DNA of 62,676 bases, counting the filler, from Collodictyon triciliatum (Eukaryota): NCBI GenBank assembly GCA_043381765.1. It is 14 parts of 14 records of this genome, joined end to end, with 100 filler letters (N's around TTAATTAATTAA, not from the genome) between each part and the next. Parts side by side here need not be neighbours in the genome. Positions count along the whole stretch, not along the records: positions 17,950 to 22,334 come from JBHJMP010006159.1; 13 more parts are not named here. The stretch is one strand, 5' to 3'. A program made the position numbers and the translations under genes. Positions within the stretch are counted from its first letter, which is position 1; each line of letters begins with the position of its first letter. The notes under the pieces were generated by a model. The model was not told where the DNA came from. It saw only the letters and a list, made by a program, of their open reading frames with translations, and searched no databases. Of the stretch, positions 17,950-20,900 are shown piece by piece.

Positions 17950-20900
17950 AATGGAATCGTGAACAAATAATTCCATTTTTATTCAGAATTGTCTACATGT
18001 CAAATACTGATGAGAGCAAAGCAAAGGTTGCATCTAATGCAATCACACTTTTGAATTTCATGAATGTTTCGTTCAGTGGAATGGATTTATCAAACATCAA
18101 AATTCCACATGCAAACCTCAGTAACTCAATCCTTGATGGTGCAAACCTCACTGGTGCCAACTTGGATGGTGTTGACTTCACGAATTCGATGCTTGGTGAT
18201 TGTATTTTTGATAATGCAAATATGAGTAATGTGAAATTCGAATTTATTCATGATAAACTAGAAGGTCATACAAATAATGTCAATAGTGTTTGCAGCATTC
18301 AAGGACCAAATGGCGAAAGTTGGTTGGCTTCTGGAAGTCGTGATAAAACAATACGTATTTGGGATGTAGCCACAGGAAACCAAATCAAAACATTAAAAGG
18401 TCATACAGAATGGGTCAATAGTGTTTGCAGTATTCAAGGACCGAATGGTGAAAATTGGCTGGCTTCTGGAAGTCGTGATAAAACAATACGTATTTGGGAT
18501 GTAGCCACAGGAAACCAAATCAAAATATTAGAAGGACATACAGACGGTGTCAATAGTGCTTGCAGTATTCAAGGACCGAATGGTGAAAATTGGCTGGCTT
18601 CTGGAAGTAGTGATAGAACAATAATTATTTGGGATGTAGCCTCAGGAAACCAAATCCACCTGTTAGAAGGACATACAGGTTGGGTCATCAGCGTTTGTAG
18701 TATTCAAGGACCGAATGGTGAAAATTGGCTGGCTTCTGGAAGTGGTGATAAAACAATACGTATTTGGGATGTAGCCACAGGAAGCCAAATCAAACCATTA
18801 GAGGGTCACACAGACGGTGTTAATAGTGTTTGCAGTATTCAAGGACCGAATGGTGAAAGTTGGTTGGCCTCTGGAAGTGTTGATAAAACAATATGTATTT
18901 GGGATGTAGCCACAGGAAACCAAATCAAAATATTAGAAGGACATACAGACGGTGTCAATAGTGTTTGCAGTATTCAAGGACCGAATGGTGAAAAGTGGTT
19001 GGCTTCTGGAAGCTGGGATAACACAATACGTATCTGGGACGTAGTCACAGGAAACCAAATCCACCTGTTAGAAGGACATACAGGTTCTGTCAACAGTGTT
19101 TGTAGTATTCAAGGACCGAATGGTGAAATATGGTTGGTTTCTGGAAGTGGTGATGAAACAATACGCATTTGGGATGTAGCCACAGGAAACCAAATCAAAA
19201 CATTAGAAGGACATACAGGTACTGTCAGGAGTGTTTGCAGTATTCAAGGACCGAATGGTGAAAAGTGGCTGGCTTCTGGAGGCGGTAATGCCTATGATAG
19301 GAATGGTGATAAAACAATACGTATCTGGGATGTAGCCACAGGAAACCAAATCCACCTGTTAGAAGGACATACAGGTTGGGTCATCAGCGTCTGTAGCCTT
19401 CAAGGACCGAATGGTGAAAAGTGGCTGGCTTCTGGAAGTGATGATAATACAATACGTATTTGGGATGTAGCCTCAGGAAACCAAATCAAAACATTAGAAG
19501 GACATACATGGGGTGTCTATAGTGTTAACAGTATTCAAGGACCGAATGGTGAAAAGTGGCTGGCTTCTGGAAGCTGGGATAACACAATACGTATCTGGGA
19601 CGTAGTCACAGGAAACCAAATCCACCTGTTAGAAGGACATACAGGTACTGTCAGGAGTGTTTGCAGTATTCAAGGACCGAATGGTGAAAAGTGGCTGGCT
19701 TCTGGAAGTGGTGATGAAACAATACGTGTCTGGGATGTAGCCACAGGAAACCAAATCAAAATATTAGAAGGTCATACAAGTGGTGTCAACAGTGTTTGCA
19801 GTATTCAAGGGCAGAATGGTGAAAATTGGCTGGCTTCTGGAAGTGATGATAACACAATACGTATCTGGGACGTAGCCTCAGGAAACCAAATAAAAATATT
19901 AGAAGGTCATATAGATTATGTCACGAGTGTTTGCAGTATTCAAGGGCAGAATGGTGAAAATTGGCTGGCTTCTGGAAGTGGTGATAAAACAATACGTATC
20001 TGGGACGTAGCCACAGGAAACCAAATCAAAATATTAGAAGGTCATACAAGTGGTGTCAACAGTGTTTGCAATGTCCAAGGACCGAATGATGAAAACTGGT
20101 TGGCTTCTGGAAGTCATGATAAAACAATACGTATTTGGGATGTAGCCACAGGAAGCCAAACATACAGTCTGCAAAAATCAGAAGTGACCTATAACCAAGG
20201 AAAATACCTTGTCAAGAAAGAAAAGCCAGACGAAGTCATCACAGTATTCAACAGAACCAGCGATACGATGAACATGATTGATACCAATAGAATTCAGTAT
20301 GTGAGAACTGTTCGAATTATTGGCCCAAGAAAGCTGCAGGGTGGAAATATCCTAATCAAAAATGTTACGGGATTGAGTCAATTCGACAAATCCCTCCTAC
20401 TTTCAATTGGTGCTGCTTCCTTTGATGCGGACCTTATTTCCTATTGCGAGTTGAGTAAGTTCACCTTGTTCCAGGCTCAGATGATGGCTGAGTGCTATGA
20501 GAACGGATGGGGTGTTGAGGAGGATACTGAGAAGGCTTATTATTGGAGAGTTATTGCTCCTTTGAAGTCATCGTTAGACTTTAATGGATTGAAGCAACTA
20601 GCGCAACAAGGTTCAAAAGAGGCCCTCAATGTTTTGAAAGAAATGACTGAAAATCTTGAGGATGAAAAATTCAAGTATCCCGAGGCTGTCGCTATTGTTG
20701 CTGAATGCTATGAGAATGGGTGGGTTGTTGAAAAGGACATGGAAAAAGCCTTAAAATGGTTTAGAGATGCTGAAAATTTTGAAAAACTGAAGCAACTAGT
20801 ACAACAAAGCTCAAAAGAGGCCTTTAAAGCTTTGGAAGAAATGGCTGAAATGTACAAGGATGACAGATACACATATCCACAAGCTATCGTTATTGTTGCT

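What the first reader, a model, noticed from the sequence alone, without database searches (positions are those of the whole stretch)
18258..20160. HET-E-like hypervariable WD40 array: candidate diversifying NLR-type immune receptor in a flagellated protist
Seen: 14 units of 135 bp are nearly identical, even at silent sites. Most variation falls at a few codons: the two residues after GHT and the one after V (NN/N, EW/N, DG/N, GW/I, GS/N, GT/R, WG/Y, SG/N, DY/T) and the two around SGSxDx (R/K, S/R, G/K, V/K, W/N, G/E, D/N, H/K). A ~75-nt block is identical at 19011 and 19572, and variant combinations recur in non-adjacent units. Known: this pattern of concerted evolution with hypervariable top-face residues is what the Podospora HNWD (het-e/het-d) allorecognition receptors show. 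Inference: 14 blades make two 7-bladed propellers whose binding surface is diversified by repeat shuffling, as part of a STAND receptor whose NACHT lies upstream of the contig.
Basis: partly seen in the sequence, partly recalled or inferred. Interest (0 to 1): 0.72.

Follow-up and report, generated by a model that had tools for sequence, protein, structure and literature searches.

The report
Hypervariable WD40 sensor of truncated NLR-like gene
This is the sensor end of a large NOD-like (STAND) receptor gene from a little-sampled eukaryote. Its 14 near-identical WD40 blades vary mainly at the ligand-facing residues, a pattern already known from fungal and bacterial immune-type receptors.

Summary
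Window 18264-20174 encodes 14 WD40 units (13 of 45 aa, one of 52 aa) with mean pairwise DNA identity 85.7%. Variation is concentrated in 8 of 45 codon columns, and five of them (4, 5, 7, 26, 28) lie in the D-A loop/strand A start and the B-C turn. An 86-nt identical tract links non-adjacent units.

The window is a chain of unplaced contigs joined by six-frame-stop spacers, so the gene sits alone on a 4385-bp contig. The reading frame is open to the contig's first codon. That upstream stretch still aligns to internal parts of relatives, so the gene is cut at its 5' end.

The architecture is helical linker, pentapeptide repeats, 14 WD40, linker, then Sel1 repeats. The closest colinear relatives are Diphylleia rotans transcripts. 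Two full-length ones carry a NACHT-type P-loop NTPase upstream, as do 13 of 13 relatives from Reticulomyxa, Mortierellaceae and their endosymbionts. An upstream NACHT is therefore well supported by homology but was not seen.

Nonsynonymous change at the variable columns is about 2.4 times the neutral expectation; one column survives correction. Tests for recombination gave mixed results. Immune function is inferred by analogy only. Verdict: a new member of a known kind.

The parts
17850..17949 (.). Artificial spacer (N44 + TTAATTAATTAA + N44) that joins two unrelated unplaced contigs
   Evidence: 13 such spacers, about 4485 bp apart; contig lengths fall from 4388 to 4376 bp
17950..22334 (.). 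The 4385-bp contig that holds the gene; neighbouring sequence in the window is not linked to it
17952..21584 (+). Open reading frame, open from the first full codon of the contig to the stop at 21582-21584. The first ATG is at 17997 (1195 aa from there) and is probably an internal Met
   Evidence: The 15 codons before the ATG align without gaps to five D. rotans relatives, and the Met column is Ser in 4 of 5
17952..18263 (+). End of a helical linker (ASNAITLLNF motif), then pentapeptide repeats
   Evidence: Pfam PF00805 E 4.3e-21. The model has helix 6-21, then short regularly spaced strands to about aa 80. Aligns to internal regions of NACHT proteins
18264..20174 (+). 14 WD40 units of 135 bp (unit 8 is 156 bp). 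Hypervariable codon columns 4, 5, 7, 19, 26, 28, 42, 43 of each unit
   Evidence: (PF00400, 14 stretches, E 2.4e-134)
19281..19301 (+). 7-codon insert (GGNAYDR) in the B-C turn of unit 8, at the low-confidence junction between the two well-modelled blocks of blades
19000..19085 (+). 86-nt tract identical to 19561-19646 (end of unit 6 / start of unit 7 versus end of unit 10 / start of unit 11)
19561..19646 (+). Second copy of the 86-nt identical tract
20175..20486 (+). Linker between the WD40 array and the Sel1 repeats. It is family-specific, 38-46% identical to six D. rotans transcripts and one unnamed NCBI fragment
20487..21581 (+). Sel1-like repeats, marked by six AECY[ED]NGW motifs. The first five periods are 66-71 aa, with 45-61% aa identity among them
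   Evidence: Pfam PF08238 E 7.4e-30; helical in the model
22335..22434 (.). Artificial spacer at the 3' end of the contig

Best explanation
The contig carries the C-terminal sensor part of a large STAND (NACHT-type) NTPase of NOD-like-receptor architecture, from a eukaryote whose nearest sampled relatives for this gene are Diphylleia rotans transcripts. The 5' part (effector and NTPase) is missing because the contig ends.

What is present, in order: the end of a helical linker, a short pentapeptide-repeat beta-helix, 14 WD40 blades (probably two 7-bladed propellers), a family-specific linker, and a Sel1 alpha-solenoid.

Shown:
- The blades are kept alike at the DNA level.
- The residues in the D-A loop / first strand and in the B-C turn change faster than silent sites.
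- Tracts are shared between non-adjacent blades.

Inferred:
- Blades are homogenised and reshuffled by unequal crossing-over or gene conversion.
- Selection diversifies the ligand-binding top face.
- Ligand binding by the propellers releases the upstream NTPase to oligomerise and signal, as in other STAND proteins, in non-self or pathogen recognition.
For: Architecture.

5' truncation and upstream NTPase:
- ORF residues 2-92 match internal regions of 19 of the 120 listed hits.
- 13 of the 13 hits examined have a Walker A motif 394-439 aa upstream of that point.
- The 15 codons before the ATG still align.
- D. rotans P0243 (2169 aa) has a Walker A at residue 468, a Pfam NACHT match at 462-632, then pentapeptide, WD40, the same linker, and Sel1.
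- D. rotans P0244 (2619 aa) has CH, DUF4062, NACHT/nSTAND1/NPHP3_N, TPR, pentapeptide, about 17 WD40 motifs (by my WD regex) and the same linker.

Internal conservation: 0.79 aa here, against 0.28-0.46 in the D. rotans paralogues and about 0.5 in Reticulomyxa.

Selection:
- Scaffold columns: dN 0.042, dS 0.25.
- The 8 variable columns: dN 0.70.
- Tree-based counts give 62.2 nonsynonymous against 12.8 synonymous events in the 8 columns, versus 24 against 26 in the other 37. The neutral expectation is about 3.3 nonsynonymous events per column.
- Column 5 is significant after Bonferroni correction (0.017 and 0.0004 on two trees). Column 4 gives 0.05-0.09 and column 26 gives 0.13-0.22.
- First and second codon position diversity in the five top-face columns (0.44, 0.46) is 3.6 times the scaffold third-position diversity (0.124).

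Position on the fold: strands A, B, C, D fall at columns 6-13, 19-25, 29-34 and 40-45. So columns 4 and 5 lie in the D-A loop, 7 in strand A, and 26 and 28 in the B-C turn.

Best fold match: 2ymu_A, 'highly repetitive propeller structure', E 5.9e-42.

Mosaic tracts. 20 of 91 unit pairs have an unexpectedly long concordant tract, against about 4.5 expected.
Against: - No NTPase or effector domain is in the data. None is found elsewhere in the window either.
- The Pfam NACHT scores of the two D. rotans relatives (24.9 and 25.3 bits) are just under the curated cut-off of 26.7.
- The variable columns were chosen after looking at the data, which inflates group-level dN/dS. Within those columns dN/dS against their own dS is only 1.35-1.46.
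- Only one column passes correction on both trees.
- The PHI recombination test is not significant (P 0.09 for all sites, 0.33 for scaffold sites).
- The tract test is confounded, because the variable sites are themselves clustered.
- Top-face residues are the least conserved in any WD40 protein.
- Columns 19 (start of strand B) and 42/43 (strand D) are not on the top face.
- Highly conserved repeats are often mis-assembled from short reads (Ament-Velasquez 2025, passages read), and this is a small unplaced contig.
- No functional or expression evidence ties it to immunity.
Confidence: 0.6

Rival explanations
1. A STAND or scaffold protein with recently amplified blades and no role in non-self recognition. 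The near-identity reflects young amplification from one or a few blades, as proposed generally for highly repetitive propellers. The variable columns are simply the least constrained surface positions.
For: - Pereira and Lupas 2022 (passages read) and Hu et al. 2017 (passages read) describe continuous recent amplification of WD40 blades in prokaryotes, fungi and protists.
- PHI is not significant.
- dN/dS against the variable columns' own dS is only 1.35-1.46.
- Relatives with NPHP3_N/TPR modules recall ciliary or scaffold proteins as much as immune ones.
Against: - Silent divergence between units is not near zero (dS 0.25), yet the scaffold is strongly conserved (dN/dS 0.17). Nonsynonymous events at the variable columns run about 2.4 times the neutral expectation.
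- The fastest columns are the same structural positions as in Podospora.
- Half-unit identity patterns occur: units 6 and 10 differ only in nt 10-61, and units 8 and 11 only in nt 74-129.
Confidence: 0.22
2. The array as written is partly an assembly artefact. Reads from several similar genes or alleles were threaded into one 14-unit path, so the order, the number and the mosaic tracts are not real.
For: - The gene lies on a 4.4-kb unplaced contig that ends 47 nt before the first ATG.
- Short-read assemblies of such repeats are unreliable.
- Public runs hold many short contigs 90-99% alike that fit two places of the stretch, with joints skipping 417-1915 nt.
Against: - The frame is intact through all 14 units and through both unique flanks.
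- Every unit is distinct.
- The hypervariable-column pattern does not depend on unit order.
Confidence: 0.13
3. The contig is a bacterial contaminant or endosymbiont gene rather than a nuclear gene of the eukaryote.
For: - NACHT-pentapeptide-WD40 proteins occur in Mycoavidus and Glomeribacter.
- The gene is one uninterrupted 3.6-kb ORF.
- Contigs in the window fall into two composition classes.
Against: - The only colinear relatives that share the linker and Sel1 part and carry an organism name are from a eukaryotic transcriptome.
- Identity to the bacterial proteins is lower (36-39% against 49-53% in the N-terminal module).
- GC3 of 0.33 matches other eukaryote-like contigs of the window.
Confidence: 0.04

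Closest known systems
Podospora anserina HNWD/NWD family (HET-E, HET-D, HET-R): NACHT-WD40 NLR-like allorecognition receptors
   Same: - WD40 units have high internal conservation.
- Hypervariable residues sit in the d-a loop and the b-c turn, with an excess of nonsynonymous change.
- Tracts are shared between units.
- The repeat count exceeds one propeller.
   Different: - Units are 45 aa, not 42.
- Pentapeptide repeats lie before the array and Sel1 repeats after it.
- The NACHT and the N-terminal effector are not seen.
- Sequence relatives place it with a Diphylleia/Reticulomyxa/Mortierellaceae group, not with the fungal HNWD genes.
- No genetics exist.
Diphylleia rotans transcripts EP00002 P031968 (P0243), P032243 (P0244), P018099 (P0126), P040976, P021718, P006060
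   Same: - They are colinear: helical linker, pentapeptide, 45-aa WD40 units, the same post-WD40 linker, then Sel1 (in P0243 and P0126).
- Identity is 49-53% in the N-terminal module and 41-46% in the linker.
   Different: - Their blades are diverged (0.28-0.46 internal identity, against 0.79 here).
- They show what lies upstream (NACHT, or CH-DUF4062-NACHT-TPR), which is missing here.
NACHT-pentapeptide-WD40 proteins of Reticulomyxa filosa, Mortierellaceae, Mycoavidus/Glomeribacter and Paramecium
   Same: They share the 'AANAITILN' helical linker, the pentapeptide repeats and the WD40 array. The Walker A lies 394-439 aa upstream in 13 of 13.
   Different: They have no matching C-terminal linker or Sel1 part. 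Identity is 26-42%.
Highly repetitive 14-blade WD40 'WRAP' domain of the cyanobacterial STAND protein Npun_R6612. PDB 2ymu is the best fold match; that 2ymu is this protein is recalled, not taken from a call.
   Same: It has 14 near-identical WD40 blades at the C-terminus of a STAND ATPase. They are reported to fold as two 7-bladed propellers and are proposed to act in innate immunity.
   Different: It is bacterial. Its blades are almost identical with no silent differences, which points to very recent amplification. No hypervariable-site pattern was reported in the passages read.

Membership tests
STAND / NOD-like receptor architecture | Central P-loop NTPase (NACHT or NB-ARC) with Walker A and B | not testable with these tools
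   The contig ends 47 nt before the first ATG. No NTPase is found in the ORF or elsewhere in the window. Relatives have one: 13 of 13, plus P0243 and P0244.
STAND / NOD-like receptor architecture | C-terminal superstructure-forming repeats as sensor | tested here: met
   Pentapeptide, 14 WD40 and Sel1 repeats
STAND / NOD-like receptor architecture | N-terminal effector or adaptor domain | not testable with these tools
   The 5' part is absent from the contig
Podospora-type NLR repeats with high internal conservation (HNWD-like) | High internal repeat conservation (Dyrka 2014: over 85% aa identity over at least 100 aa; Ament-Velasquez 2025: 80-100% within a gene) | tested here: inconclusive
   Mean aa identity is 0.79, maximum 0.91; nt identity is 85.7%. 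That is just under the 85% criterion on average but above the 0.7 'highly repetitive' cut-off of Hu 2017.
Podospora-type NLR repeats with high internal conservation (HNWD-like) | Positive diversifying selection at d-a loop and b-c turn positions | tested here: inconclusive
   The group of 8 columns has about 2.4 times the neutral number of nonsynonymous events. Column 5 is significant after correction; columns 4 and 26 are marginal; columns 7 and 28 are not. This rests on one gene only, and the columns were chosen after inspection.
Podospora-type NLR repeats with high internal conservation (HNWD-like) | Concerted evolution: exchange of repeats within and between genes, and repeat-number polymorphism | tested here: inconclusive
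   Identical tracts of 55-86 nt link non-adjacent units. The tract test is positive but confounded. PHI is not significant. Polymorphism cannot be tested without other individuals.
Podospora-type NLR repeats with high internal conservation (HNWD-like) | Close sequence relationship to fungal NWD genes, 42-aa unit | tested here: not met
   Units are 45 aa. The closest relatives are D. rotans and Reticulomyxa-type proteins with a pentapeptide module. Fungal HET-E-like hits match the WD40 part only.
NACHT-pentapeptide-WD40 group (Diphylleia, Reticulomyxa, Mortierellaceae, Mycoavidus, Paramecium) | Helical linker, then pentapeptide repeats directly before the WD40 array | tested here: met
Sel1-like repeat proteins (PF08238) | Sel1 repeat profile match above the curated cut-off | tested here: met
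   102.7 bits against a cut-off of 30.7

The most novel reading that the evidence does not exclude
A deep-branching, non-fungal eukaryote (near Diphylleia, CRuMs) maintains NLR-like receptors whose WD40 sensor is diversified by blade reshuffling plus selection on the top face. That would mean this way of generating recognition diversity is either ancient among eukaryotes or repeatedly reinvented or transferred. Here it comes in a three-part sensor (pentapeptide, WD40, Sel1) not described for fungal or bacterial examples.
Probability: 0.35. Interest if true: 0.6.

Novelty: new member of a known kind. Interest (0 to 1): 0.45.

Why it matters
Receptors whose repeats are kept alike and reshuffled, while the binding residues diversify, are well documented in fungi and proposed for bacteria. 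A clear example in a protist lineage far from both would widen the known range of this mechanism. It would also give a concrete gene family (Diphylleia-type NACHT-pentapeptide-WD40-Sel1) in which to ask whether unicellular eukaryotes use NLR-like proteins against viruses, bacteria or conspecifics.

In the libraries searched I found no paper on such genes in Diphylleia or on this domain combination. Highly repetitive WD40 proteins in 'Protista' were counted in bulk by Hu et al. 2017.

Tried and rejected
- **Whole genome.** None is held, so paralogues and the 5' part could not be sought in the assembly.
- **Paralogues in the window.** blastn and tblastn of the contig against the rest of the window found none. 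tblastn with the upstream parts of six relatives found no NTPase or TPR piece in the window. The only hit was a Sel1-like match onto the gene's own Sel1 region.
- **Metagenome scan with the N-terminal 149 aa.** 593 stretches matched and 458 were confirmed as relatives. The best of the 80 kept was only 34% identical, and most matched the WD40 unit alone. No close relative, and no way to extend the gene.
- **Public runs.** No run holds more than 9% of the sampled words. Laying four runs gave only short contigs of about 90-325 nt, 90-99% alike, many fitting two places, and none spanning the array. This says nothing firm about the assembly, habitat or expression.
- **C-terminal region search.** Apart from one D. 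rotans transcript it found only generic Sel1 proteins at 20-32% identity.
- **PHI recombination test.** Not significant.
- **Taxonomic placement with the DEAD-box helicase fragment of the neighbouring contig.** The best identities were 41-59%, spread over plants, fungi, alveolates and animals, so the organism is unresolved. That contig also has a very different GC3 (0.68 against 0.33) and may not be comparable.
- **Pfam scans of whole relatives.** These were swamped by WD40 families; N-terminal parts were scanned instead.
- **Supplementary tables of the Podospora papers.** Closed, so the exact published residue numbering and combinations were taken only from main-text passages.
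Full report
**What the window is.** The 62,676-base window is not a natural chromosome stretch. It contains 13 identical 100-bp spacers, each N44 + TTAATTAATTAA + N44 (a six-frame stop linker), about 4485 bp apart. The pieces between them fall steadily in length from 4388 to 4376 bp. This is how unplaced contigs, sorted by size, are chained into a pseudomolecule. 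The finding therefore sits alone on a 4385-bp contig, window 17950-22334, and the flanking sequence says nothing about it. No whole genome is held for the window.

**The observation.**
- Tandem Repeats Finder reports a 135-bp period, 13.9 copies, at 18259-20160.
- One ORF runs 17997-21584 on the + strand (1195 aa, P0001). Its frame stays open back to the first full codon of the contig, 17952.
- Splitting at the GH motif gives 14 in-frame WD40 units at 18264-20174. Thirteen are 45 aa; unit 8 is 52 aa because of a 7-codon insert.
- Mean pairwise nucleotide identity is 85.7% (range 77-95%). Mean amino-acid identity is 0.79.
- Column by column, counting G of GHT as 1, columns 4, 5, 7, 26 and 28 carry 4-7 residues each. 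Columns 19, 42 and 43 also vary. Most other columns are invariant or nearly so.
- Seven columns hold 58% of all pairwise amino-acid differences.
There are further tracts of 78, 69, 66, 64 and 55 nt, three of them between non-adjacent units.
- The one overstatement is 'nearly identical even at silent sites': silent divergence in the scaffold columns is dS 0.25.

**Anatomy of the gene.**
- Pfam finds pentapeptide repeats before the array (PF00805, E 4.3e-21).
- It finds 14 WD40 stretches (PF00400, E 2.4e-134).
- It finds Sel1 repeats after the array (PF08238, E 7.4e-30).
- The Sel1 part has six AECY[ED]NGW motifs. The first five periods are 66-71 aa and 45-61% identical to one another, so they are much less homogenised than the blades.
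- There is no NTPase domain in the ORF.
- An AlphaFold2 model was built on a 19-sequence alignment (mean pLDDT 66.5, pTM 0.39). It shows a helix at residues 6-21, regularly spaced short strands to about residue 80, four strands per WD40 unit, and helices from about residue 795.
- Confidence is good in two blocks (10-residue block means 66-93 over residues 131-410 and 65-92 over residues 471-680). It is low at unit 8, where the insert lies.
- This fits two propellers of seven blades, but I could not measure it from coordinates.
- The best fold match in the PDB is 2ymu_A, 'highly repetitive propeller structure' (E 5.9e-42). Next come double-propeller proteins and Apaf-1.

**Where the variable columns lie.** In the model, strands A, B, C and D occupy columns 6-13, 19-25, 29-34 and 40-45 of each unit.
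- Columns 4 and 5 are in the D-A loop and column 7 is in strand A.
- Columns 26 and 28 flank the Asp of the B-C turn.
- By established WD40 topology these elements form the top face.
- Paoletti et al. 2007 (PMC1805685, passages read) place the four selected positions of the Podospora repeats as pair (7,9) in the d-a loop and pair (25,27) in the b-c turn.
- The pairs (5,7) and (26,28) here have the same spacing within each pair and lie in the same elements. The a-b loop is three residues longer, in line with the 45-aa rather than 42-aa unit.
- Column 19 (start of strand B) and columns 42/43 (strand D) do not fit the top-face picture.

**Selection.**
- Nei-Gojobori pairwise estimates give dN 0.042 and dS 0.25 for the 37 scaffold columns (ratio 0.17).
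- For the eight variable columns dN is 0.70. The ratio is 1.46 against their own dS and about 2.8 against the scaffold dS.
- A parsimony count on two trees gives 62.2 nonsynonymous and 12.8 synonymous events in the eight columns, against 24 and 26 in the other 37. The neutral expectation is about 3.3 nonsynonymous events per column.
- Column 5 is significant after Bonferroni correction on both trees (0.017; 0.0004). Column 4 gives 0.05-0.09 and column 26 gives 0.13-0.22. The rest are not significant.
- First and second codon position diversity in the five top-face columns (0.44, 0.46) is 3.6 times the third-position diversity of the scaffold (0.124).
- Caveats: there is one gene and 14 units. 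The columns were picked after seeing the data. Recombination inflates event counts on a fixed tree. Surface loops are the least constrained part of any WD40.
- I read this as moderate support for diversifying selection, not proof.

**Shuffling.**
- The closest pairs show half-unit patterns. Units 6 and 10 differ only at nt 10-61. Units 8 and 11 differ only at nt 74-129.
- The junction of units 10 and 11 combines the 6|7 and 7|8 contexts.
- In a tract-length permutation test, 20 of 91 pairs fall under P 0.05, against about 4.5 expected. The test is confounded because the variable sites are themselves clustered.
- 237 of 561 informative site pairs are incompatible, but the PHI test is not significant (P 0.09 for all sites; 0.33 for scaffold sites).
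- Exchange between blades is therefore plausible but not demonstrated.
- Ament-Velasquez et al. 2025 (PMC12222747, passages read) show that such repeats are not recovered reliably from short-read assemblies. The order and number of units on this small contig need long-read confirmation.

**Is it part of a STAND receptor?**
- A whole-protein search returned WD40-only matches (at most 52% identity, about 53% coverage). A subset with about 60% coverage also carry NACHT and pentapeptide domains. These come from Reticulomyxa filosa, Mortierellaceae fungi, Mycoavidus and Glomeribacter endosymbionts, and Paramecium.
- ORF residues 2-92 align to internal regions of 19 of the 120 listed hits. The C-terminal part matches none of them.
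- In 13 of the 13 examined, a Walker A motif lies 394-439 aa upstream of that point. The alignment continues into the 15 codons that precede the ATG.
- A profile-free scan of 1.84 billion representatives with the post-WD40 linker gave 198 hits at E 0.001 or better, mostly to the Sel1 motif. Eight of them cover the linker itself.
- Six of those eight, plus P0126, are Diphylleia rotans transcripts of EukProt.
- They are colinear with this gene. P0126 shows 35% identity over 888 columns, E 1e-171. Identity is 49-53% in the N-terminal module and 41-46% in the linker. They share the 45-aa unit.
- The two full-length ones show what lies upstream.
  - P0243 has a Walker A at residue 468 and a Pfam NACHT match at 462-632 (24.9 bits; cut-off 26.7).
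  - P0244 has CH, DUF4062, then NACHT (25.3 bits), nSTAND1 and NPHP3_N matches, then TPR repeats.
- The 15 codons before the ATG align to five D. rotans proteins without gaps. The Met column is Ser in four of the five.
- I conclude that the gene is cut at its 5' end by the contig edge. An upstream NACHT-type NTPase is very likely, though unseen.
- No such piece is present elsewhere in the window.

**What is special here.** Within this family, internal blade identity is 0.28-0.46 in the D. rotans paralogues and about 0.5 in Reticulomyxa. Here it is 0.79, comparable with the Fusarium and Ceratocystis HET-E-like proteins (0.82, 0.79) and a Mortierella alpina protein (0.85). Homogenisation is thus a property of this gene or lineage, not of the family.

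**Organism.** The gene's nearest relatives are from D. rotans, which I recall to be a biflagellate of the CRuMs group. At about 50% identity this does not name the organism. A DEAD-box helicase fragment on the next contig has no close relative (41-59% identity across many eukaryote groups). That contig also has a very different GC3 (0.68 against 0.33). 'Flagellated protist' is plausible but untested.

**Known context and novelty.**
- High internal conservation with selected top-face positions is documented for Podospora and many fungal NLRs. It is proposed for bacterial NLR-like proteins and for the cyanobacterial 14-blade WRAP propeller.
- Hu et al. 2017 counted highly repetitive WD40 proteins in prokaryotes, fungi and protists.
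- An earlier follow-up in this scan reached the same reading for a bacterial 21-blade array on other DNA.
- My searches found no paper on such genes in Diphylleia or on the NACHT-pentapeptide-WD40-Sel1 combination.
- I rate it a new member of a known kind. It is of moderate interest because of the lineage and the three-part sensor.

Noticed in passing
whole window; spacers at 4389-4488, 8876-8975, 13363-13462, 17850-17949, 22335-22434 and onward every ~4485 bp: The window is a pseudomolecule of unplaced contigs, sorted by falling length (4388 to 4376 bp) and joined by N44+TTAATTAATTAA+N44 six-frame-stop spacers. Adjacency of genes across spacers is meaningless.
   Followed up: yes
contigs 13463-17849 and 22435-26819 versus the others: There are two composition classes. 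ORFs on these two contigs have GC3 0.57-0.68, while ORFs on the other contigs, including the finding, have GC3 0.33-0.42. This could be mixed origin or strong heterogeneity within one genome.
   Followed up: partly
relatives P0016, P0093 (bacterial endosymbionts) and P0038, P0055, P0063, P0072 (Mortierellaceae): The NACHT-pentapeptide-WD40 architecture is shared by Mortierellaceae fungi and by their Burkholderia-type endosymbionts (Mycoavidus, Glomeribacter). It also occurs in Reticulomyxa, Paramecium and Diphylleia. This patchy spread suggests horizontal transfer.
   Followed up: no
window 20679-21041 versus P0072 residues 59-177: The Entomortierella relative has a Sel1-like stretch at its N-terminus that matches this gene's C-terminal Sel1 region (27% identity, E 8e-4). 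So Sel1 repeats accompany this family in different positions.
   Followed up: no
window 21919-22334 (3' flank of the gene): Summed contig depth in run X3 is far higher here (919-1381) than over most of the gene. This may be a repeated element at the contig end.
   Followed up: no
window 40372-42729 and 42894-44754 (+): Two long ORFs of cysteine-rich CxxC/GTYN-type repeats lie on one contig. By eye, the second ends in hydrophobic, membrane-like segments. No family search was run.
   Followed up: no
window 28498-29820 (-): A 440-aa ORF with leucine-rich-repeat-like periodicity, followed by a cysteine-rich region and, by eye, a hydrophobic segment, like a receptor ectodomain. Not tested.
   Followed up: no
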